From assembly GCA_045541975.1 (NCBI GenBank), contig JAZQKB010000026.1:4593-68592 (forward strand): a stretch of DNA of 64,000 bases, given 5' to 3'. Shown here in pieces: positions 3,626 to 39,336 of this stretch. The DNA comes from Clostridia bacterium (lineage in GTDB: Bacteria > Bacillota > Clostridia > UMGS1840). Below the pieces are notes generated by a model. The model had not been told where the DNA came from. It searched no databases and was given only the letters and a program-made list of their open reading frames with translations. The position numbers and the translations under genes were made by a program. Each line of letters opens with the position of its first letter. The first letter of the stretch is position 1.

Positions 3626-4543
3626 ATGAAGAGTTTTTATCCTTTTTATTATGGGGACTTTCAATGCATTGGCGGAGCGTGTCAGCATAACTGTTGCATC
3701 GGTTGGGAAATTGACATTGACCGGAAGACTTTCGAGAAATACCAAGGGAGTTCAGGTGTTTTAGGAGATCGCTTAGCGAAGAATATTTCCACGGAAGATA
3801 CTCCGCATTTCATCTTGCAAGAATCGGAAAGATGTCCTTTTTTAAATGAGCAAAATCTTTGCGATATTATATTGGAAAAAGGAGAAGATTTTCTCTGTCA
3901 GATTTGCACAGATCACCCCAGATTCCGTAACTTTTTTTCCGGTTGCGTTGAGGTGGGATTAGGGCTTTGCTGCGAGGAAGCGGCACGATTAATGTTATCT
4001 CAGATAAAACCTTTTACCATACCTGAAAAACCGTTGGAAATTTTAACGGAGGAGGAAGTATCTTTTTTTCGTTTCCGTAGTGATATTTTTAGAAAAATAG
4101 GGGACAGAAGTTTGCCATTATTTCAGCGAATTTCATCCCTGTGTCAGGGATACGGAATTTCTCTCCCCAAAAAAACTCATCAAGAGTGGGCAGAGATTTT
4201 TCTTTCTTTGGAGTATTTGGATGAAACATGGATCACATTCTTACAACAATTAAAGCAAGCAGATTCTGTGGGTTCCCTGTCTACCGAGTGGGATCCTCCC
4301 TTAGAACAGTTATTTAGCTATTTTATTTACCGTCATTTAGCAGGCGGCTTGGAGGACGGTCGCTATGGCGAGCGGATTTTATTCGCTCAATTGGCTGTTA
4401 CCATGATTTCTTTCTTGGCATCCATACAAACCAATCAACCACTCACCTTGGAATCTTTTTTTGAACTTTCCAGACTATATTCTTCTGAAATCGAATATAG
4501 CGAGGAAAACACCGAAGCACTTTTAACCTTACTGGAAAATTAA
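3626..4543 (+). CDS. FliB-like cysteine-cluster protein (annotated in databases as flagellin lysine-N-methylase family)
   Basis: The N-terminus YYGDFQCIGGACQHNCCIGWEIDIDRKTFEKY is the typical FliB/YkgJ-type Cys cluster. A second CPFL...C...C..H cluster follows. Confidence 0.65.
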   Translation: MKSFYPFYYGDFQCIGGACQHNCCIGWEIDIDRKTFEKYQGSSGVLGDRLAKNISTEDTPHFILQESERCPFLNEQNLCDIILEKGEDFLCQICTDHPRFRNFFSGCVEVGLGLCCEEAARLMLSQIKPFTIPEKPLEILTEEEVSFFRFRSDIFRKIGDRSLPLFQRISSLCQGYGISLPKKTHQEWAEIFLSLEYLDETWITFLQQLKQADSVGSLSTEWDPPLEQLFSYFIYRHLAGGLEDGRYGERILFAQLAVTMISFLASIQTNQPLTLESFFELSRLYSSEIEYSEENTEALLTLLEN

Positions 4544-4585: not shown

Positions 4586-5740
4586 TTAAATGATGGTATT
4601 TCGTTTCGTTCGTTTGGAGAGCAAAAGATTTCCCGCAAATACCAAGGCGTATATCACACTAATATAACCCAATGCCCATAGATGGTATTTTGCTCCATAA
4701 ACACCGTTTAAATAGTAGTAAATAGGTAACAGACGAAAATACCCTTCCAATTCCACAAAGTTAAAGAAAATAGGGGATAATACCAGAGATAGAATCAAAA
4801 TTCCCGGAATTATTGCACCAAATTTTCCGTATGAGGAAAAGGGGAGGGAAACCAGCAGTGAAAATCCGGTTGCAGTAACCGTTAAGAGAAGTGTTGCAAT
4901 CAGTTCATTGGCAAAGGATTCTGTCAGATTGGAAAGCGCTAACGATACCAGCATGACACTTGCGGAAAGAATCGCAGCTGCCAGACAGGTCCCCATTGCC
5001 GGAATGATTCGTTTTTGCGGAGCTAACCAGTCAAATCGTCCTTCCGAACGGTCTTTTACGGAGTACATTGCAGCAGTCAAAGTGCATAAGAGAACCATCA
5101 CTGCAAGTAATCCTCTGATGGGAGCATTCAGATAATTGATTTGAGCATTGTTTTGGCTTTCACCCACCGTTTCCACGGTCACCACTTCATCCTGTTGAGG
5201 TAATTTCAGATAAAATTCTTCGATTGTTTGTTCCGGTACGTTTTTTCCGTTCACAATATGTTCTTCTGAGAAATTGCGGTAAATATCATAGGAAAAATCA
5301 TGAAATATTGCAGAAAAAAGCATTTCGTTAACAATCTGATTTGCCATATTGGATTCTCTGCGAATCACAGTCACCACCGGTTTTCGGGAGGTATTAGCTG
5401 CATACTGATCTAAACGTTTGGAAAAATCGTTCGGAAAAATCCAGGCAACATCCGTTTTGTGGTTGGCGACCAGCTTGGTTGCTTCGTTTACGGAATCTGC
5501 CACGGTAAAGTACACCATAGAATCGTTTTCCATAAGAGAAGTTATGATGTTTTTTGCGGTGAGATCGTCACCTTCGTGACAAAGTGTCACTCGCATCAGA
5601 CCGCTGTCTTGTTGCATTGCCATATTTCCCATGGGAATCATCACGGGAATCAGACACAAAAGCACCACAAAGCTCCATTGCTTTAGCAGACGTTTCCCAA
5701 GCATATAAAACCAGTTCATACAGTATTTTAGTTTATTCAT
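4586..5740 (-). CDS. ABC-2 type transporter permease
   Basis: 384 aa with one N-terminal TM segment, a large extracytoplasmic loop and a C-terminal cluster of TM helices. It overlaps the upstream permease gene by 4 nt. Confidence 0.7.
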   Translation of the reverse strand: MNKLKYCMNWFYMLGKRLLKQWSFVVLLCLIPVMIPMGNMAMQQDSGLMRVTLCHEGDDLTAKNIITSLMENDSMVYFTVADSVNEATKLVANHKTDVAWIFPNDFSKRLDQYAANTSRKPVVTVIRRESNMANQIVNEMLFSAIFHDFSYDIYRNFSEEHIVNGKNVPEQTIEEFYLKLPQQDEVVTVETVGESQNNAQINYLNAPIRGLLAVMVLLCTLTAAMYSVKDRSEGRFDWLAPQKRIIPAMGTCLAAAILSASVMLVSLALSNLTESFANELIATLLLTVTATGFSLLVSLPFSSYGKFGAIIPGILILSLVLSPIFFNFVELEGYFRLLPIYYYLNGVYGAKYHLWALGYISVIYALVFAGNLLLSKRTKRNTII

Positions 5741-6972
5741 TGAAAATCACCTGCTATCCGATATTTTCGCCAGAGGGCAGATATGGTAAAGAAACCGCCA
5801 ATGTAGGCTAATATCCACACAAAATCGGCAAGTGCAAGCTCGTTTGACATCGTTTTTCGGATAAACGAAAAGGCCAGTCCTACCGGTAGAGATTCCATCA
5901 GATTCCGTAGGAAATCCGGGAAGAAGAAATTTGGATACAAACATCCGGACAGATATCCCAGAATCAAAAAGCAGAGAAACTGTGCCAGCAGTGCACCAAT
6001 AAAATTGGGAATCAATTCGTAGAAGGTATATTGCATCAGAGTAATCATTACAAATACAGGAATCAGGCGAATCACAAACAAAAGACAGTCAAGCACACCA
6101 ACTGATAGCAGCTCCGGAACCGGCAACTTTACAAAAGAAAGCACAATTCCGAAAATACCTGCAAAAATCAACAGCATCAAGGTGGTGATGGTAGCATAGG
6201 CACCGTATTCACAAAGCACCTGCGATGTGGGGGGAATACCTGAGATTTTTAAGAGACGGTTGTATGAAAGATTTCGGGAGGAAAACAGCCGATTGCAGGA
6301 AACACCCCAAAGCAGCAAAAATAATGTTGTAATTCCGCACACATAATAGCCACCTAAAGACAGCGAATCCGCAATACCAAGATCGTTCATCTCATACATC
6401 TCGGTACGGTTTAAGATGAAATTCATATAAGACAGCATTAAACTGTTGGTGTTATCGTGATAATCTGCATTATCATACATCAACGATAAATCCTGCATAG
6501 AATACATGCCGTTCTGGGATTCAATAACCAGCTCAGAAACAATTGTCACGATTTCTTCCGAGAACATTGCACCCAAGGTTTTCGGGCCGTTTAGAGTGAT
6601 GTATTTGGCAGGTGTGTTGATGCCAAGGTATAAATTGTTGATATAGTTTTCCGGCACCAAAATATAACCCTGAATTTGTCTCTCATCCAGAGCATTTTTG
6701 GCTTCTTCTTCCGTTAGATTCACCAGTTCCACATAAAAACGGGAGCTATCCATATTCTGTAGAGCATATAAGCCGATATCAAGATAGGAGCTTTCTAAAT
6801 CCCCCACCACACCAATGGATATTTTTTGCTGTTTTTCACCGGTTAAAGTGGATTTGAGCAAAATGCCTCCTGCCGTGGCAAGACATCCCAACACAAGTAC
6901 GGTAACCAGTAAAATGACAGGAAAAATTTTGAAAGCCCGTTTTAAGTGTAACCGAAAATATTTTTTTAGCAT
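5737..6972 (-). CDS. ABC-2 type transporter permease
   Basis: 411 aa with the same topology as its neighbour. It directly follows the ATPase gene. Confidence 0.7.
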   Translation of the reverse strand: MLKKYFRLHLKRAFKIFPVILLVTVLVLGCLATAGGILLKSTLTGEKQQKISIGVVGDLESSYLDIGLYALQNMDSSRFYVELVNLTEEEAKNALDERQIQGYILVPENYINNLYLGINTPAKYITLNGPKTLGAMFSEEIVTIVSELVIESQNGMYSMQDLSLMYDNADYHDNTNSLMLSYMNFILNRTEMYEMNDLGIADSLSLGGYYVCGITTLFLLLWGVSCNRLFSSRNLSYNRLLKISGIPPTSQVLCEYGAYATITTLMLLIFAGIFGIVLSFVKLPVPELLSVGVLDCLLFVIRLIPVFVMITLMQYTFYELIPNFIGALLAQFLCFLILGYLSGCLYPNFFFPDFLRNLMESLPVGLAFSFIRKTMSNELALADFVWILAYIGGFFTISALWRKYRIAGDFQ

Positions 6973-9892: not shown

Positions 9893-10125
9893 AAATCTAA
9901 TAGCTATCACACAAAGTGGCAGTTACTCTGCAAAAACAGGAGTAACCGCTTGAAAGGGAAAGAGGTGCAAATCCTCTGCGATCAACTGTCGGTGTGTGCA
10001 TCGAAGTTGCTGTGTCCGTCGGTGAAAACCGGTCATTGGGAAACTGAGAAGGCAGGGCATAGTAATGCGGATTTTTCATTGAAAAATCTATATGGTGTGA
10101 GCCACAAAACCTGCTTTGGTATTTT
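9893..10125 (+). promoter_or_regulatory. cobalamin (B12) riboswitch aptamer
   Basis: Core motifs are present in the right order. These are gaAAGGGAAagaGGTGcAAATCCtctgcgatcaACTGTcggtg, then GTCATTGGGAAactGAGAAGGC, then a B12-box-like AGCCACAAAACCTGCT near 10100-10116. It lies upstream of a corrinoid adenosyltransferase. Confidence 0.75.
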
Positions 10126-10203
10126 CTTGTGTCCATTTGTGGAGTGGGAGAGTATTTTGTTTCTTTATGGGAAGCATTTGTGATATTCTGCAGGAACATT
10201 CAG

Positions 10204-30258: not shown

Positions 30259-31740
30259 GTGGAAAAAACATATCTTTGCATTGATTTAAAGTCTTTTTAT
30301 GCCTCCGTGGAATGTATGGAACGAGGATTGGACCCGCTAAAAACCAATCTGGTGGTTGCCGATAGCTCCCGTACGGAAAAAACCATCTGCTTAGCGGTAA
30401 CACCCAGTTTAAAACAGTACGGTCTTTCGGGCCGTTCCCGTTTGTTTGAAGTAGTAAAACGGGTTCGTGAGGTGAATGAGGAACGGCTCCGTCATGCACC
30501 AAATCGCACCTTTTCGGGAGAATCCCATCAGGCGGATTGTTTGAAAACCGATCCGTCCTTAAAATTGTCTTACCTGATTGCACCACCTCGTATGGCACAC
30601 TATATGGAATACAGTACCAAAATTTATGATGTTTATTTAAAATATGTTTCTCACGAAGATATTTTAGTATATTCCATTGATGAAGTTTTTATTGATTTAA
30701 CGGCATATTTGCCGTTTTATAAAAAAACAGCACGGGAATTGGCATTGCTCATTATCCGTGATGTGCTTGCAACTACAGGGATAACTGCCACAGCGGGCAT
30801 TGGCACCAATTTGTATCTTGCCAAAATTGCGATGGACATCAAAGCCAAAAAAATGCCTGCCGATCGCGACGGTGTGCGAATTGCGTTTTTAGACGAAAAA
30901 AGCTATCGTCAGGAGCTATGGAACCATCAGCCGTTGACTGATTTTTGGAGAGTGGGGCAGGGTTCTGCCAAACGGTTGGAAAGCCGTCGGATGTATACCA
31001 TGGGAGATATTGCCCGTGCATCCTTGTCGGCAGATGGCAGAAAGGTTTTAAAAAAATTGTTCGGCATCAATGCCAAACTTCTCATTGATCATGCCTGGGG
31101 GTATGAACCTTGTGATATTGCAGAGGCTAAGGCCTATATTCCCGAAAATCGCAGTCTAAGCTCAGGACAGGTGTTATCTTCTCCCTATGATTATGAAAAA
31201 ACACGAATCATCGTTCGGGAGATGACGGAGCTGATGGCGTTGGATTTGGTGGAAAAACGGATTTTGACTGACCAGTTGACCTTAACGATTGGTTACGATA
31301 CCGAAAACGTGACCAAAAACTTCAAAGGAACCGTGGAAACTGACCGTTACGGCAGAAAAACTCCGAAATCTGCTCACGGCACCGTGAATCTTTCCCAAAT
31401 GACTTCCTCCACCATGCTGATGATGGAGGGAATGATGGAACTGTTTGAACGAATTGTAGATTCCCGCCTGACTGTTCGCCGGATAACGATTTCGGCAAAT
31501 CGGTTGGTATTGGAAAAAAGCTATCAAAAAGAACCGGTGTACGAACAACTGGATTTATTTACCAGCCAAGATGAAAAACAGGCAAAAGAAAAACAGTTAG
31601 AAAAAGAACGCAGTCTTCAGGAAACGACCGTCCGTCTTCGTAATAAATTTGGCAAAAATGCCGTATTAAAAGGCACCAACCTGCAGGAAGGTGCCACCAC
31701 TATGGATAGAAACCGTCAGATTGGCGGTCATAAAGCGTAG
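30259..31740 (+). CDS. Y-family DNA polymerase (UmuC/ImpB/UvrX-like)
   Basis: CIDLKSFYASVEC, YSIDEVFIDLT and ATAGIGTNLYLAKIAMD are Y-family catalytic motifs. GTG start follows ggaggagg. Confidence 0.9.
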   Translation: MEKTYLCIDLKSFYASVECMERGLDPLKTNLVVADSSRTEKTICLAVTPSLKQYGLSGRSRLFEVVKRVREVNEERLRHAPNRTFSGESHQADCLKTDPSLKLSYLIAPPRMAHYMEYSTKIYDVYLKYVSHEDILVYSIDEVFIDLTAYLPFYKKTARELALLIIRDVLATTGITATAGIGTNLYLAKIAMDIKAKKMPADRDGVRIAFLDEKSYRQELWNHQPLTDFWRVGQGSAKRLESRRMYTMGDIARASLSADGRKVLKKLFGINAKLLIDHAWGYEPCDIAEAKAYIPENRSLSSGQVLSSPYDYEKTRIIVREMTELMALDLVEKRILTDQLTLTIGYDTENVTKNFKGTVETDRYGRKTPKSAHGTVNLSQMTSSTMLMMEGMMELFERIVDSRLTVRRITISANRLVLEKSYQKEPVYEQLDLFTSQDEKQAKEKQLEKERSLQETTVRLRNKFGKNAVLKGTNLQEGATTMDRNRQIGGHKA

Positions 31741-31750
31741 GTGAATTTTT

Positions 31751-32170
31751 TTGGACAACTTAGAAAACTTTTATCGTGATATCATACATTATTCCTATCC
31801 CAATCCCGAAATTGAAAAAGACTTTCCCGATCCGGTATTGCGGGGCGCTCAGTTTGCACCTTTTGCAGCCTTAACAGGCCACGATGAAGCAATCGAGGAA
31901 ACTGCCCGGTTAACTGACGGAAAAATTATTTTGTCCGAAACACGACAGGAAGAAATCAACCGCAGCCTGCAGTTTCTTTTAGAGCATATCGGGGAACACC
32001 CGATGGTTTTAGTTACCTATTTTGTAGCCGACCAAAAAAAGCAGGGTGGTGCTTATGATACGAAACAGGAAACTGTCTTAAAAATTCGCGCTGCTGAACA
32101 AATTTTACTTCTTTCTGACAAAACCGAAATCTCATTTTCCGATATTTTAAATCTGGGAATTTTAGCATAG
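31751..32170 (+). CDS. YolD-like protein
   Basis: 139-aa ORF immediately after the Y-family polymerase, with the FAPFAALTGH motif typical of YolD-like partners. TTG start. Confidence 0.65.
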   Translation: MDNLENFYRDIIHYSYPNPEIEKDFPDPVLRGAQFAPFAALTGHDEAIEETARLTDGKIILSETRQEEINRSLQFLLEHIGEHPMVLVTYFVADQKKQGGAYDTKQETVLKIRAAEQILLLSDKTEISFSDILNLGILA

Positions 32171-32244
32171 CATTTTCCAACAACTATAAGAGAGTTATCG
32201 CAAAGCCAATAGGAGCAAATTTCCAAACTATCTTCGTTTCGCAC

Positions 32245-32280
32245 AAAAAAAATCTGTAACCCTTGCGGTTACAGACTTTT
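32245..32280. terminator. rho-independent terminator
   Basis: ctgtaacc/ggttacag stem with loop cttgc, preceded by A8 and followed by acTTTT. Confidence 0.65.
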
Positions 32281-32283
32281 GGG

Positions 32284-32327
32284 TGGCAGGGGCAGTAGGA
32301 TTTGAACAGGGGCACATAGGATTTAAG
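32284..32327 (-). repeat. tandem tRNA-Trp 3'-end-like remnants (att-site scars), not a functional tRNA
   Basis: The reverse complement of 32284-32307 reads GTTCAAATCCTACTGCCCCTGCCA. That is T-loop, T-stem 3' strand, acceptor 3' strand, discriminator G and CCA, matching the bacterial tRNA-Trp 3' end from memory. A degenerate second 20-mer (32308-32327) follows. No 5' half of a tRNA is present. Confidence 0.6.
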
Positions 32328-32481
32328 TTGGTGCAAGACGAATTAAATTGTGTTATCCTACACCTCGAAAAGCATTGGGGTTACAGGCTTTTTCAAATGT
32401 AGTGGCGGAAAACCCGCAAAATTCAAATAATTACGAAATTTTAAAATTTTGACCAAAAAGTTGGTGCAAAGTTGGTGCAAG
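32325..32481 (+). repeat. three copies of AAGTTGGTGCAA(G/A)
   Basis: Copies at 32325-32337, 32458-32470 and 32469-32481. The last two are in tandem and overlap by 2 nt. Confidence 0.7.
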
Positions 32482-32534
32482 CACTAGTCTGCATATACGC
32501 AAAAAAATATTTAGATTTATTATTTTAATTTAAT

Positions 32535-32570
32535 AAAAAAATGGAACAGACTTACTGTTCCATTTTTTTA
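32535..32570. terminator. bidirectional rho-independent terminator
   Basis: atggaacag/ctgttccat 9-bp stem flanked by A7 and T7, downstream of the 32623 gene. Confidence 0.8.
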
Positions 32571-32622
32571 TGCTTAGTAAGTGTACAAAGTTTAGACTAT
32601 AATGTATACGTGAGTTTATTAT

Positions 32623-33045
32623 TTAACCTTGATTTTGCCTATAAATTTCTTTTAAATTTTCAATAGCAAGTACGGGATCCATTGTGTGAAACACCATATA
32701 ATTTCGTTTCATTGTATCAACAGGAGCCTGCTTATATATTTTGGAACTATCTTCACCGGTGTAAAAATGCCAGTAGCGATAAAGATATCCAATCCAATAG
32801 ATTACATCAACAGAAAAGACTTCTCCCTCTGAAGATGAGATACCTGTATTTTGGGATATCAATTCTTCAAGCAGGTATTCTTCTCCAGCCCACTGCATAC
32901 GGTTATATTTTGAATCTAAATCTTTAGCAATTTTAGAAGTCATAAACGCTTTGATAAAGGGTGCACTGCTATAACCTTTTTGAGTAGCTAATTCAAAAAG
33001 TCTGCCTTGAATATCACACAGTTTTAATTGTAATTCATCAATCAT
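32623..33045 (-). CDS. hypothetical protein translationally coupled to the HTH-DUF3990-like gene (possibly DUF3791-like partner)
   Basis: 140-aa ORF. Its ATG lies 2 nt after the upstream stop, and an aaggaga RBS sits inside the upstream gene end. Confidence 0.55.
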   Translation of the reverse strand: MIDELQLKLCDIQGRLFELATQKGYSSAPFIKAFMTSKIAKDLDSKYNRMQWAGEEYLLEELISQNTGISSSEGEVFSVDVIYWIGYLYRYWHFYTGEDSSKIYKQAPVDTMKRNYMVFHTMDPVLAIENLKEIYRQNQG

Positions 33046-33047
33046 GA

Positions 33048-33917
33048 TTATTCTCCTTTCGCTTCGTCAAGGATTTCATCAAAAAACTTGCCATCACGGC
33101 GATGACTTTTGCAGATATCGTTTGCCAGAGATACACCTTTCGCCCTGTTTTCTTCTGCAATATTTTTCATAACAAGTCTTTCAAGATAAGAAAGAGGTAT
33201 TTCGGCTTCTATACGAACAGCGTTACAGCCTTTTTGGGAAATGGTTACATATTGTTTACCTAACTGCAATGCGGAAAGACTGTTGACGAGAGCAATATCC
33301 GTAATATTTCCAACGAAAAAGTTATCGATGACATAAAACATTCTATCATTTGCAATACTGCCGATGATTAAATCCTTGTCAGCCATCATATTGCAATATT
33401 GATTGTAAAGGGGAGTATCTTTTATGGTTTCCATCTTGCCCCGGTTATATGCCACGAGCATAGCCCAGTCAATATCCGGATTCACTTCTAAACATTTTAA
33501 CTTATCAGTACAAATTGATACAATATAAAATTTCGACTCCTCATAATCGCAGACAAGGGTAAGAGGTTGATTTGGATCGGTTCCCATATAAAAGCCTTCG
33601 CCAAAGTCACATTGTTTACGGCTTTTTGGTGCAATATCCCCAATGATACCAGATTTAGAACCGTGATAAAGCAGAATTCTGTTTTTTTCCAGTTTGATAT
33701 CTTGGGAAGCTTGTTGGATTTTTTCCAGAATCATATCGTAAACAGGTATGCTTTTGTCCTTGCATATATCGTACAGTTTTGTTTGAGCAAGTTTATTTGG
33801 GATAGCATGCCCGTTTTCCCAACGGTTGACTGTTGCAAAAGATACGCCGAGCCAAGCTGCAAATTCATTTTGACTCATATTTATAATGTTTCTGATTCTT
33901 TTTATTATAGTATTCAT
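33048..33917 (-). CDS. XRE-family HTH fused to DUF3990-like domain
   Basis: The N-terminus MSQNEFAAWLGVSFATVNRWENG is a canonical XRE HTH. The C-terminal part has LLYHGSKSG, DFGEGFYMGT and IIGSIANDRMF, which is the DUF3990 pattern as I remember it. Confidence 0.7.
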   Translation of the reverse strand: MNTIIKRIRNIINMSQNEFAAWLGVSFATVNRWENGHAIPNKLAQTKLYDICKDKSIPVYDMILEKIQQASQDIKLEKNRILLYHGSKSGIIGDIAPKSRKQCDFGEGFYMGTDPNQPLTLVCDYEESKFYIVSICTDKLKCLEVNPDIDWAMLVAYNRGKMETIKDTPLYNQYCNMMADKDLIIGSIANDRMFYVIDNFFVGNITDIALVNSLSALQLGKQYVTISQKGCNAVRIEAEIPLSYLERLVMKNIAEENRAKGVSLANDICKSHRRDGKFFDEILDEAKGE

Positions 33918-37514: not shown

Positions 37515-37668
37515 GGAGTGTTGCTGTTTAAAAAAAGATGAATTGTGCAAAATGACGGGGAAGAGGGCGATTATTAACCAAAATTTTCTGTCATACTGAC
37601 TTGGGACCGAAAAACGCTTGGCAGTAAGAAAATCTTTGTTGAAACCTCACAAACTTAACATATCCGGC

Positions 37669-37697
37669 TTGACTTATGGCTTGATTTTTGGTATACT
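37669..37697 (+). promoter_or_regulatory. consensus-like sigma-A promoter (TTGACT-17-TATACT)
   Basis: TTGACT at 37669-37674, an exact 17-nt spacer, TATACT at 37692-37697. Confidence 0.75.
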
Positions 37698-37703
37698 ATA
37701 ACC

Positions 37704-37951
37704 GTGACAGGGGCTTGCATCCAGGCTTTCGGTACATCGGAAGAATTCCCGGTGTTAGACTTGCTCGAGGATGTAGTAGGGAACCGTTACGGATTTAGCG
37801 CACTGAGCGATCCATAATGATGCAAGCAAAACTGAATATGAAGCCGGAGGGCTGCTAATACTTTACAGAGTCAATCGTGGGGATGAGACACCCAAATTTC
37901 CCGACACTTGGCTCTGTATTGTCATTTTTGCAGACCTTCCGGCTTTTTTTT
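37704..37951 (+). ncRNA. structured RNA / leader of about 245 nt (possibly the DUF3268-associated RNA motif)
   Basis: It has a perfect 9-bp long-range helix (37713-37721 with 37819-37827). A 14-bp helix with one bulge pairs 37842-37855 with 37930-37944. An 11-bp inner helix pairs 37864-37874 with 37908-37918. It ends in T8 at 37944-37951. To the eye it is much more GC-rich than its flanks. Confidence 0.6.
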
Positions 37952-37973
37952 ATTGCAATTGGAGGTAATTTAC

Positions 37974-38444
37974 GTGAATAAAAAGAACAAAAAACGAAAG
38001 GGAATTAATGCAGCTCCTACCCGTTGTCCTTACTGCGGCGGACGTGTTGTTTTCCGGAGTGCCGATGGCATTTACCAGGAAAACCACAATGGTAGGATGC
38101 TTTATGTATGTTCCCGTTATCCTGAATGTGATGCTTATGTCAGAACCCATGACGGAACAAGGATTCCTGTTGGTAGTATGGCAAATCACGAACTGAGAAT
38201 TCTCAGAAAAACTGCACACCATTATTTTGATCAGTTACATAAATCCGGTCTGATGACCAAAGACGGTGCTTACGACTGGTTAGCCAATGTGATTGATGAA
38301 CCAAAGTCTTACGCACATATAGGGCTCTTGAGTGAATACTATTGCAAACAGGTGATTGAACAGAGTAAAGAATACTTAAGACGTTATAAGAATAAGCAGA
38401 AAAACTTGCAGTCTAAAAAGAGAAGAGGGGAGCTGATTTCATGA
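37974..38444 (+). CDS. zinc-ribbon protein (DUF3268-like, topoisomerase-type C4 finger)
   Basis: GTG at 37974 lies 7 nt after ggaggt. CPYCGG...CSRYPECDAYV forms a C4 zinc ribbon, followed by a helical C-terminal half. The ATG at 37908 lies inside the RNA helix and is rejected as the start. Confidence 0.65.
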   Translation: MNKKNKKRKGINAAPTRCPYCGGRVVFRSADGIYQENHNGRMLYVCSRYPECDAYVRTHDGTRIPVGSMANHELRILRKTAHHYFDQLHKSGLMTKDGAYDWLANVIDEPKSYAHIGLLSEYYCKQVIEQSKEYLRRYKNKQKNLQSKKRRGELIS

Positions 38445-38957
38445 AATTAACAGCTCAGCAGCAGAAACTGGTTGAAGATAATCTGGGTCTGGTAGGCAAA
38501 GTAATTTTCCAAAAGGTCTATGATATTGATAAGCTTCCTTTTTATACATATGATGACCTTTTCCGGATTGGTTGTATCGGACTTATGAAAGCTGCTACAA
38601 CTGGATAAAGGCGGTACCTTTTCTACTTATGCCTACAGACTCATCTGGAATGAGATTTGCGATGCATTAGCTTACGCTACACGAAAAAAATCCAAAGAAG
38701 AATCTTTAGATACAATTCAATTGACTGATCCTGAGGATGATTTTGAAGTCAACCGGGATTTAAGAATTGAGCTGTATGATGTGATACAAAAAGCGAAGGG
38801 AGATGTTTCTCCCTCCGTTTCGTTTGGTATTGATGCATTATTGCTTATGAATGACGGCTACACCGCCAAAGAAATAGGTGTTCGTTACGGCAAAACAGCA
38901 CATACCGTTGCTGCATTGGTATCCAAGGCGAAGAAGCACTTTAGAAGTACATTATGA
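38441..38957 (+). pseudogene. sigma-70 family (element-type) sigma factor, split by a frameshift
   Basis: The ATG at 38441 overlaps the upstream stop (ATGA). Region 2 (DDLFRIGCIGLMKA) runs into a TAA at 38606. Shifted one base downstream, the next frame continues with LDKGGTFSTYAYRLIWNEI and a region-4 HTH (YTAKEIGVRYGKTAHTVAALVSKAKK) to 38957. Confidence 0.7.
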
Positions 38958-38966
38958 ATCTTTGTG

Positions 38967-39336
38967 TTAATCATTAAAGTTTTCCTTACGATATTGTAAT
39001 GGTGACATCCCTACATTTTTTTGAATATCAAATTCAAATGTGTAGCGTTGGAAAGACTGAGTAGTTCGCTGATTTCTTCGATGGATTTATTGGTTGACCG
39101 TAATAGTGTTTTTGCTAAACGCAATTTGTTTTTCAAAATATACTGATGTGGCGTTATGTTATATCTTTGCTTAAAAAGACGGGTAAAATGCTGCACTGAT
39201 AAATTTGAAATTTTTGCAAGATCTTCTAAGGTGATGTTATCTGTCAGATGTGAGTCAAGATATAACCGGGCATTGTCAATGGCATCGTGATTCGAGGTTG
39301 TGATTTGGTGATGCTTGGAAAGAAATGCAATGATTT
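38967..39336 (-). pseudogene. AraC-family regulator remnant (N-terminal sensor domain missing, 3' frameshift)
   Basis: Only the C-terminal double HTH remains (ITLEDLAKISNLSVQHFTRLFKQRYNITPHQYILKNKLRLAKTLL..). A 7-nt homopolymer at 39016-39022 breaks the frame; with one more base it would read FKKNVGMSPLQYRKENFND-stop. Confidence 0.7.

What the first reader, a model, noticed from the sequence alone, without database searches (positions are those of the whole stretch)
37669..37951. Consensus promoter driving a ~245-nt highly structured RNA ahead of a zinc-ribbon/sigma operon
A near-perfect promoter (TTGACT-17-TATACT) is followed by a segment that looks clearly more GC-rich than its surroundings and has no credible ORF. 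It folds into two domains closed by long-range helices that I can pair base by base.
- 37713-37721 GCTTGCATC pairs with 37819-37827 GATGCAAGC (9 of 9).
- 37842-37855 pairs with 37930-37944 (14 bp, one bulge, one G-U).
- 37864-37874 pairs with 37908-37918 (11 bp).
The last helix is immediately followed by T8, so the whole 3' domain is an oversized intrinsic terminator about 25 nt upstream of the GTG start of the zinc-ribbon gene. That architecture suits a ligand-, protein- or antisense-controlled attenuator, or a stable element-encoded sRNA. From memory, a DUF3268 RNA motif of unknown function was reported upstream of DUF3268 zinc-finger genes in Clostridia, and this may be an instance. Its function is unknown either way.
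Basis: partly seen in the sequence, partly recalled or inferred. Interest (0 to 1): 0.72.

Follow-up and report, generated by a model that had tools for sequence, protein, structure and literature searches.

The report
Known DUF3268 RNA leader with terminator
This is a clear copy of an already catalogued but functionally unexplained bacterial RNA (the DUF3268 RNA, Rfam RF02966), and it sits with a conserved transcription stop signal in front of a zinc-ribbon/sigma-factor operon carried by conjugative DNA elements of gut Clostridia.

Summary
Rfam's DUF3268 model (RF02966) matches window 37706-37828 full length at 106.2 bits, against a threshold of 65.3. The gene that starts at GTG 37974 is Pfam DUF3268.

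I add four points.
- The 3' domain (37842-37951) is not part of the 121-nt Rfam model. It is a conserved intrinsic terminator and lies about 30 nt before the start codon in nearly all relatives.
- A scan for the RNA alone found a DUF3268 gene downstream in 57 of 58 testable metagenome loci.
- The cassette of promoter, RNA, terminator, DUF3268, sigma-70 and S26 signal peptidase lies inside conjugative elements, next to the type IV coupling protein and a SpaA adhesin. It has no matches in the phage, plasmid or viral collections.
- In this window the sigma gene carries a +1 frameshift and the element looks like a remnant.

Most likely this is a cis-acting attenuating leader. The operon can be expressed only by read-through of the terminator. 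The signal is unknown. A helix-swap antiterminator I proposed is pairable in 91% of cells but has no compensatory changes. The family is known, its function is still open, and interest is modest.

The parts
37669..37697 (+). Sigma-A-type promoter: -35 TTGACT (37669-37674), 17-nt spacer ending in TGG (extended -10), -10 TATACT (37692-37697). The inferred transcription start is near G37704.
   Evidence: One search gives 10 of 12 with TG. TTGACA-17-TATACT is conserved at the same spacing from the RNA in 65 leaders. The start site is inferred, not measured.
37704..37707 (+). 5'-terminal GUGA, a candidate pseudoknot partner of the UUAC junction at 37787-37790.
   Evidence: 94.9% of cells pair in 99 leaders. 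The only changes are one-sided (G-U to A-U, and one to G-C). This is a candidate, not proven.
37706..37828 (+). DUF3268 RNA (Rfam RF02966), full length. P1 is 37712-37721/37819-37828. J1/2 CAGGCUUU is 37722-37729. P2 is 37730-37733/37783-37786. The P2a hairpin is 37734-37755. The k-junction core is G37758.A37782 and A37759.G37781, flanking the P3 hairpin 37760-37780. The P4 hairpin is 37791-37813.
   Evidence: 106.2 bits against a gathering score of 65.3, model positions 1-121. Covariation in P1, P2, P2a and P3 is shown. The k-junction assignment follows PMC10573300 and was read from the sequence.
37829..37841 (+). A-rich single-stranded linker (AAACUGAAUAUGA). The UGAAUAU core is nearly invariant in relatives.
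   Evidence: Alignments. The reason for the conservation is unknown.
37842..37944 (+). 103-nt terminator hairpin. The base helix is 37842-37855/37930-37944, the inner helix 37864-37874/37908-37918, and the apical part 37877-37905 (GGAUGAGACA loop region).
   Evidence: -52.1 kcal/mol. In 99 leaders the base is 96.7% paired with double changes in 8 of 14 pairs, and the inner helix is 93.1% paired with double changes in 7 of 11. RNAalifold recovers both helices independently. A natural variant, L142, keeps only the base plus the U-tract.
37944..37951 (+). U-tract (T8) of the intrinsic terminator.
   Evidence: Read. 51 of 61 related leaders have at least 7 T in the 9 nt after the stem.
37961..37976 (+). 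Shine-Dalgarno GGAGG (37961-37965) and GTG start codon (37974-37976) of the DUF3268 gene.
   Evidence: CGGAGG is conserved in relatives. The N-termini of homologues align to this start.
37974..38444 (+). DUF3268 zinc-ribbon protein gene (156 aa). Its stop codon overlaps the start of the next gene (ATGA).
   Evidence: Pfam PF11672 at 170.4 bits. 328 homologues. phrog_1934, function unknown.
38441..38957 (+). Sigma-70 family (ECF-like) gene, broken in this window by a +1 insertion near 38603, with a premature TAA at 38606-38608.
   Evidence: Searches show split ORFs at 38441-38608 and 38721-38957. One search shows one extra base compared with the intact L001 copy. The intact L001 protein matches TIGR02937 at 67 bits.

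Best explanation
What it is. The segment is the 5' leader of a regulatory operon carried by a conjugative element. A strong constitutive-type promoter starts transcription at about 37704. The first roughly 125 nt fold into the known DUF3268 RNA, a multi-helix junction with a k-junction. The next roughly 110 nt form a long hairpin followed by U8, which is an intrinsic terminator 22 nt before the start codon of the DUF3268 zinc-ribbon gene. In intact elements that gene is translationally coupled to a sigma-70 factor and followed by an S26 signal peptidase.

Shown:
- Membership of the RNA family.
- Conservation and covariation of both domains.
- Strict linkage to the gene.
- No room for a promoter after the terminator.

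Inferred:
- By default most transcripts end at 37951 as an RNA of about 245 nt, and the operon is made only by read-through. The leader therefore acts as an attenuator that keeps the element's sigma factor low.
- The folded DUF3268 domain is probably the sensor that sets the read-through frequency. I favour a protein or RNA-polymerase-level partner, possibly a product of the operon or the element, over a simple helix-swap metabolite riboswitch. I found no conserved, compensated antiterminator.

In this window the cassette is probably no longer functional as a switch, because the sigma gene is frameshifted.
For: - Identity: Rfam RF02966 at 106.2 bits, full length. The k-junction core nucleotides are present (PMC10573300).
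- Structure: 92.5% of cells pair in 99 leaders, 40 of 64 pairs show double changes, and 0 of 500 shuffles reach this. Slid controls pair at 36-42%. RNAalifold gives an independent consensus. Many G-U pairs make the structure specific to the + strand RNA.
- Terminator: the median hairpin is 98 nt at -48.7 kcal/mol, 51 of 61 leaders have at least 7 U after the stem, and the stem ends a median 30 nt before the start codon.
- Linkage from the protein side: at least 71 of 80 loci found through the protein carry the motif 212-261 nt upstream. The remaining nine are cut by contig ends or carry variant leaders.
- Linkage from the RNA side: 57 of 58 metagenome loci found through the RNA alone have the gene 163-282 nt downstream.
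- Context: the type IV coupling protein, a SpaA/LPXTG adhesin, sigma-70 and an S26 peptidase lie on the same strand.
- No promoter-like site lies between 37951 and 37974.
Against: - No transcript data are available. The start site, the termination efficiency and any regulated read-through are all inferred.
- No conserved alternative pairing links the sensor domain to the terminator. The only candidate, 37722-37733 with 37843-37854, has 0 compensatory changes and is mismatched in about half the family.
- Rfam files the family as 'Gene; sRNA'.
- A strong promoter plus a strong terminator is also what a stand-alone sRNA gene looks like.
- The protein partner is a guess. The AlphaFold model of the DUF3268 protein (pLDDT 74.6) has no significant match in the PDB by fold or by sequence.
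Confidence: 0.6

Rival explanations
1. A stand-alone trans-acting small RNA of about 245 nt, with its own promoter and terminator. Its position in front of the DUF3268 gene reflects only co-inheritance on the element. The operon gets basal, unregulated read-through.
For: There is a consensus promoter and a strong intrinsic terminator. The 5' end is possibly tucked into a pseudoknot, which would stabilise the RNA. Rfam types the family as sRNA. No compensated antiterminator was found.
Against: The RNA never occurs apart from the gene: 57 of 58 in the RNA-first scan. The spacing to the start codon is fixed. No promoter lies between the terminator and the SD. No conserved complementary target of the apical loop was found within 6 kb on either side.
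Confidence: 0.2
2. A classical metabolite riboswitch. The conserved J1/2-P2 segment CAGGCUUUCGGU (37722-37733) pairs with the 5' arm of the terminator, GCCGGAGGGCUG (37843-37854), as an antiterminator. Ligand binding to the DUF3268 domain decides between the two folds.
For: The window and about half of the family can form an 8+3 bp duplex of about -17 kcal/mol. 91% of cells are pairable. J1/2-P2 resembles the 3' arm of the terminator (CAGGCUUUCGGU against CAGACCUUCCGGCU). The core has many invariant junction nucleotides and a k-junction, as in TPP riboswitches (PMC10573300).
Against: There are 0 compensatory changes. The U-to-C change (29 of 62 leaders) and the G-to-A changes in this segment are not compensated in the terminator arm, whereas the G-to-A changes are compensated inside P2. 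Duplex energy z-scores are only -1.5 to -2.4, and about 0 or positive in half of the family. L073 and L117 break the pairing further. There is no association with metabolic genes.
Confidence: 0.1
3. A DNA-level element, such as a cruciform, a transfer origin or a recombination site built from the roughly 100-bp inverted repeat, rather than an RNA.
For: It lies inside a conjugative element, and long inverted repeats are typical of oriT regions.
Against: Pairing is kept through G-U wobbles on the + strand. Examples are columns 180/275 (19 G-U), 181/274 (28 G-U) and 203/250 (72 U-G). These would be A.C mismatches on the other strand and mismatches in DNA. A U-tract follows on the + strand only. 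The 5' half is a curated RNA family with a solved k-junction.
Confidence: 0.02

Closest known systems
DUF3268 RNA motif (Rfam RF02966; Weinberg et al. 2017, PMC5737381; k-junction crystal structure PDB 8ITS, PMC10573300)
   Same: Full-length match at 106.2 bits. It has the same helices, the same invariant junction nucleotides and the same k-junction core. It sits in the same place upstream of a PF11672 gene and in the same host group (Clostridia).
   Different: Nothing differs within the 121-nt model. The Rfam model stops at P1 and does not include the promoter, the candidate 5' pseudoknot or the conserved terminator hairpin described here. The papers I could read state that no function has been ascribed. 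I could not read the 2017 supplement, so I cannot say whether the terminator was already noted there.
Riboswitch and leader attenuators with intrinsic-terminator expression platforms (for example TPP, T-box or PyrR-type leaders)
   Same: A structured sensor-like domain is followed by a terminator in the 5' UTR, so the gene is expressed only by read-through. It shares the k-junction architectural element with TPP riboswitches.
   Different: No ligand is known and there is no compensated antiterminator helix. The terminator hairpin is unusually long (about 100 nt). The controlled genes are regulators of a mobile element, not metabolic genes.
Terminator read-through control of conjugation regulators in Gram-positive plasmids (pCF10 prgQ/IRS1 with Anti-Q; pAD1 iad-t1/t2-traE1). 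From my own knowledge, not checked here.
   Same: A strong promoter gives a short terminated leader RNA. A positive regulator of transfer lies behind the terminator.
   Different: Those systems use an antisense or counter-transcript RNA. No antisense promoter was found in this leader, and there is no sequence relationship.
Cis-acting processive antitermination RNAs (HK022 put, Bacillus EAR). From my own knowledge, not checked here.
   Same: A promoter-proximal, highly conserved structured RNA lies in front of terminators in a long co-directional gene array.
   Different: No Rfam match to such families appears even at E up to 1. There is no evidence of RNA polymerase binding.

Membership tests
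DUF3268 RNA (Rfam RF02966) | Covariance-model score at or above the curated gathering score (65.3 bits) | tested here: met
   106.2 bits, E = 2.7e-21, model positions 1-121 of 121, not truncated.
DUF3268 RNA (Rfam RF02966) | All model helices are present (P1 closing helix, P2, and three hairpins) | tested here: met
   The alignment shows only 3 non-standard pairs. The helices covary in relatives.
DUF3268 RNA (Rfam RF02966) | Invariant junction nucleotides (CAGGCUUUCG, (C/U)AGAC, GGAACCGUUACGGA) | tested here: met
   All are present at 37722-37731, 37756-37760 and 37780-37793. The window has U at the variable first position of (C/U)AGAC.
DUF3268 RNA (Rfam RF02966) | k-junction: tandem sheared G.A/A.G pairs at the three-way junction, with no insertion between G1b and A2b | tested here: inconclusive
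   The sequence requirements are met (G37758-A37759 opposite G37781-A37782, flanking P3). The three-dimensional fold cannot be tested here. The criterion comes from PMC10573300.
DUF3268 RNA (Rfam RF02966) | Location upstream of a gene for a DUF3268 (PF11672) protein | tested here: met
   The gene 37974-38444 matches PF11672 at 170.4 bits.
Intrinsic (Rho-independent) terminator | Stable G+C-rich stem base followed directly by a U-tract | tested here: met
   The base GCCGGAGGGCUGC/GCAGACCUUCCGGC is followed by U8. It is conserved and covaries. Actual termination was not measured.
Metabolite riboswitch | Expression platform with a conserved alternative pairing that excludes the terminator | tested here: not met
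   The only candidate pairing has 0 compensatory changes and is mismatched in about half of the family.
Metabolite riboswitch | Specific ligand binding by the aptamer | not testable with these tools
   This needs in-line probing, ITC or similar assays.
Trans-acting sRNA gene | Own promoter and terminator defining a discrete transcript | tested here: met
   by sequence prediction only.
Trans-acting sRNA gene | Occurs and is conserved independently of the adjacent gene | tested here: not met
   57 of 58 loci found by the RNA alone have the DUF3268 gene at a fixed distance. There are no second copies in the window.

The most novel reading that the evidence does not exclude
The DUF3268 RNA could be a new class of cis-acting riboregulator. 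It could be either a riboswitch for an unidentified signal or a put/EAR-like element that modifies RNA polymerase. It would gate read-through of a dedicated terminator and so act as the master on/off switch for a sigma factor that drives transfer of a widespread family of conjugative elements in gut Clostridia.
Probability: 0.2. Interest if true: 0.7.

Novelty: already known. Interest (0 to 1): 0.3.

Why it matters
The RNA family has been catalogued since 2017, and part of it has been crystallised. The papers I could read say no function is ascribed to it. The analysis here turns 'an RNA upstream of a DUF gene' into a concrete, testable unit: promoter, sensor-like RNA and a conserved terminator in front of a zinc-ribbon/sigma-70/signal-peptidase operon inside conjugative elements of human and animal gut Clostridia. 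If read-through is regulated, this leader would control horizontal gene transfer in abundant gut bacteria, and it could be assayed with simple termination or reporter experiments. For this particular window the instance is ordinary. It is a typical family member attached to a decayed element.

Tried and rejected
1. Helix-swap antiterminator (37722-37733 with 37843-37854). It is pairable but not compensated, and its duplex energy is not better than shuffles in half of the family. Rejected as a family-wide mechanism.
2. Search for any other conserved alternative helix between the sensor domain, the terminator arms and the SD, using runs of at least 5 columns at 85% or more pairing. It found only the known helices, the candidate 5' pseudoknot, the weak UUGCG/UGCAG pairing, and the anti-SD-like CUUCC of the 3' arm with the GGAGG SD. 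None is demonstrably functional.
3. Truncated-transcript folding. The free 5' arm mostly forms a trivial local hairpin.
4. Antisense promoter inside the leader: none found.
5. Complement of the conserved apical loop (GGAUGAGACA) elsewhere in the loci: none found.
6. Small ORFs in the leader (37688-37798, 37704-37817, 37877-37981, and TTG 37908). They are not conserved. The variation is RNA-like, with indels that are not multiples of 3.
7. Rfam at E up to 1 for the 3' domain: only noise (CrcZ, 11.8 bits).
8. Plasmid and phage records (blastn) and viral contigs (pattern scan): no match.
9. DUF3268 protein function. There is no PDB sequence hit below E = 0.009 and no fold hit below E = 1. An ANTAR-domain protein (Rv1626) appears at E = 2.4, which is not significant.
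10. Proteins c36 and c40 upstream of the leader: no Pfam, NCBIfam or PHROG hits.
11. The supplement of the 2017 discovery paper is not held, so its description of the motif could not be checked.

Full report
**1. The observation**

- The promoter is TTGACT, a 17-nt spacer, then TATACT, scoring 10 of 12 with a TG extended -10.
- G+C rises to 0.52 at 37700-37819, against 0.31-0.37 just upstream.
- The 252 nt from 37704 fold at -92.7 kcal/mol (z = -4.97; 0 of 200 dinucleotide shuffles do as well).
- The 3' half alone (37829-37955) folds at -54.9 kcal/mol (z = -7.72).
- The T8 run is 37944-37951, the SD GGAGG is 37961-37965, and the GTG start is 37974.
- One small correction: the in-frame upstream codon at 37908 is TTG, not ATG.

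**2. Identity of the 5' domain**

A scan of the whole window against Rfam 15 gives two hits above threshold. One is DUF3268 RNA (RF02966) at 37706-37828, with 106.2 bits against a gathering score of 65.3, E = 2.7e-21, covering model positions 1-121 of 121.

The nucleotides that form the k-junction solved by Li et al. (PDB 8ITS; PMC10573300) are present. They are G37758-A37759 opposite G37781-A37782, flanking hairpin P3.

The gene starting at GTG 37974 is Pfam DUF3268 (PF11672, 170.4 bits). [quoted passage not shown] The supplement of the 2017 discovery paper, which holds the description of the motif, is not available here.

**3. Relatives and what is conserved**

A protein search found 328 homologues of the zinc-ribbon protein. 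A scan of one genome per species with their alignment found 169 loci encoding a relative, of which the best 80 were kept. All of these are Clostridia from gut or rumen: Lachnospiraceae, Oscillospiraceae/Ruminococcaceae, Blautia, Schaedlerella and others.

At least 71 of the 80 carry the motif core 212-261 nt before the start codon. The remaining nine are explained:
- Three are cut by a contig end.
- Four carry a variant that lacks P3.
- One has a divergent J1/2.
- One has the leader displaced by an inserted gene.

The whole leader aligns, not just the 121-nt motif. Conserved parts are:
- the promoter at a fixed distance;
- the 5' end GUGRC;
- the motif;
- a short linker with a nearly invariant UGAAUAU;
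- a long hairpin whose base is AGCCGGARGGCUGC ... GCAGNNCUUCCGGCU;
- a U-tract;
- CGGAGG and the start codon.

**4. The 3' domain is a conserved terminator**

Over the related leaders:
- The hairpin has a median length of 98 nt and a median energy of -48.7 kcal/mol.
- 51 of 61 leaders have at least 7 U in the 9 nt after the stem.
- The stem ends a median 30 nt before the start codon.

On a 99-sequence alignment (62 genome and 37 metagenome leaders):
- 92.5% of cells form standard pairs, against 36-42% when the 3' partners are slid by 1-3 columns.
- 40 of 64 pairs show changes on both sides.
- 0 of 500 shuffles reach the observed values.
- The terminator base is 96.7% paired, with double changes in 8 of 14 pairs.
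- The inner helix is 93.1% paired, with double changes in 7 of 11 pairs.

RNAalifold, run without my structure, recovers P1, P2a, the terminator base and the inner helix.

Many pairs are kept through G-U. This is possible only for the + strand RNA, so a DNA-level cruciform is excluded.

Natural variants show which part matters. L142 has lost the whole inner extension and keeps only GCCGGAGG/CCUUCGGC plus U5. L117 has compensated GG-to-AA and CC-to-UU changes in the base. The long extension is therefore dispensable, and the base plus U-tract is the core.

**5. Cis or trans**

I scanned the metagenome collection for the RNA alone, using the pattern CAGGCTNTCGGTAC-N30-60-CCGTTACGGAT. This gave 66 loci. 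Of the 58 with enough sequence downstream, 57 have a DUF3268 gene 163-282 nt after the motif. The one exception has a disrupted copy at the same place. The same pattern finds nothing in 2.9 million viral contigs. Blastn finds nothing in phage or plasmid records.

With about 10-15 nt between the U-tract and the SD, there is no room for a promoter. The zinc-ribbon/sigma operon can therefore be expressed only from transcripts that pass the terminator. This is the main reason I read the element as a cis-acting attenuating leader rather than an independent sRNA. No transcript data are available, so termination and read-through are inferred.

**6. How the two domains might communicate**

I looked for a conserved alternative pairing.

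The most conserved single-stranded stretch of the motif together with the P2 strand (CAGGCUUUCGGU, 37722-37733) is complementary to the 5' arm of the terminator (GCCGGAGGGCUG, 37843-37854). The duplex is 8+3 bp at -17.3 kcal/mol. The same stretch also resembles the 3' arm. This looked like an antiterminator, but it fails the comparative test:
- 91% of cells are pairable, but there are no compensatory changes.
- The U-to-C change in 29 of 62 leaders gives a C.A mismatch.
- The G-to-A changes are compensated inside P2, not in the terminator arm.
- The duplex energy is only 1.5-2.4 sd better than shuffles where the pairing is intact, and no better than shuffles in the other half of the family.

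I keep it as a minority possibility.

A second feature is better behaved. The first four transcribed nucleotides (GUGA, 37704-37707) can pair with the UUAC junction (37787-37790). 94.9% of cells pair, and the only changes are G-U to A-U or G-C. This is a candidate pseudoknot that would tuck in the 5' end.

The CUUCC of the 3' arm could also pair with the true SD. I have no evidence that this matters.

No antisense promoter and no nearby complement of the conserved apical loop were found.

**7. Genomic context**

In most loci the order is:
- a giant SpaA-repeat LPXTG adhesin, or an SLH protein;
- a small membrane protein;
- the leader;
- DUF3268;
- sigma-70 (regions 2 and 4; TIGR02937);
- an S26 signal peptidase.

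A VirD4/TraG coupling protein and an S1-domain protein lie further upstream, and an HTH protein, SpoVG and a 2812-aa protein lie downstream. All are on one strand. This is the layout of a conjugative element.

In this window the element looks decayed:
- The F-type ATP synthase operon (20.9-30.1 kb) is chromosomal.
- Homology to the closest relative (L001, 94%) covers only 37530-38944, that is, leader, DUF3268 and sigma.
- The sigma gene has one extra base near 38603 and stops at 38606.
- There is no signal peptidase, and an AraC-type fragment follows on the other strand.

**8. The protein**

The AlphaFold model (pLDDT 74.6) shows a zinc ribbon plus a helical domain. It has no significant fold match in the PDB (best E = 1.2) and no convincing sequence match. 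It belongs to phrog_1934, of unknown function. It therefore gives no help with the mechanism. The idea that it or the sigma factor feeds back on the leader is a guess, by analogy with autoregulated leaders of nucleic-acid-binding proteins.

**9. Verdict**

The family is already known (RF02966), so the instance is not novel.

The analysis adds these points:
- The terminator hairpin is a conserved second domain.
- The RNA is strictly cis-linked to its gene.
- There is a candidate 5' pseudoknot.
- The cassette belongs to conjugative elements of gut Clostridia.
- The k-junction arm is dispensable in some natural variants.

My estimates are:
- about 0.6 for a cis-acting attenuator with an unknown input, more likely a protein or the polymerase than a metabolite;
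- 0.2 for a pure trans-acting sRNA;
- 0.1 for a helix-swap riboswitch;
- about 0.02 for a DNA element.

The remaining ~0.08 is left for readings not listed.

Noticed in passing
window 9897-10132 (+): A cobalamin riboswitch aptamer (RF00174) scores 43.5 bits against a gathering score of 31.5, full length.
   Followed up: no
window 38441-38957 (+), insertion near 38603: The sigma-70 gene behind the DUF3268 gene is split by a +1 frameshift compared with the 94%-identical copy in L001. It could be a pseudogene or a sequencing error.
   Followed up: yes
window 37530-38944 compared with L001 5557-6970: Only the leader + DUF3268 + sigma block is shared with the closest relative. The upstream genes differ: two proteins without family matches here (345 and 377 aa), against an SLH giant protein plus a small membrane protein in L001. 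The cassette appears to move as a module between element backbones.
   Followed up: partly
L061 ~2440-2530, L063 ~5661-5750, L066, L071: These natural variants of the RNA lack hairpin P3 and the k-junction core, which are replaced by a single U. They keep P1, J1/2, P2, P2a, P4 and the terminator, have about 130 nt of extra hairpins before the gene, and fall below the Rfam threshold. The crystallised k-junction may be peripheral to function.
   Followed up: partly
L142 2406-2589; L123 4112-4414; L074 ~4170-4400: Other leader variants exist. L142 has a minimal 30-nt terminator. L123 has an extra hairpin between the motif and the terminator. L074 has a 176-aa ORF inserted between the leader and the DUF3268 gene.
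   Followed up: partly
window 37722-37733, 37843-37854, 37930-37943, 37961-37966: Four related short elements occur in the leader. J1/2-P2 (CAGGCUUUCGGU) resembles the terminator 3' arm (CAGACCUUCCGGCU). The terminator 5' arm (GCCGGAGGG) resembles the true SD (UGGAGGU). The resemblance is unexplained, and comparative data do not support a switch.
   Followed up: yes
window 37829-37841 and the same columns in A4: The linker between the two domains has a nearly invariant UGAAUAU, although it is predicted to be single-stranded. The reason is unknown. It could be a protein or RNase site, or an A-rich tract that helps termination.
   Followed up: no
window 30259-33917: Between the ATP synthase operon and the leader lie a Y-family DNA polymerase (impB/mucB/samB, 30259-31740), an HTH_3+DUF3990 protein (33048-33917, - strand) and a weak DUF3791 match (32623-33045, - strand). 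These are likely cargo or remnant of the same mobile element.
   Followed up: no
window 39011-39196 (-): A short ORF matches only the C-terminal HTH of AraC-family regulators, directly after the broken sigma gene. It may mark the edge of the element.
   Followed up: no
DUF3268 protein, window 37974-38444: The protein family also has a phage family (phrog_1934, E = 1e-36). However, neither the RNA motif nor this DNA is found in the phage, plasmid or viral collections.
   Followed up: partly
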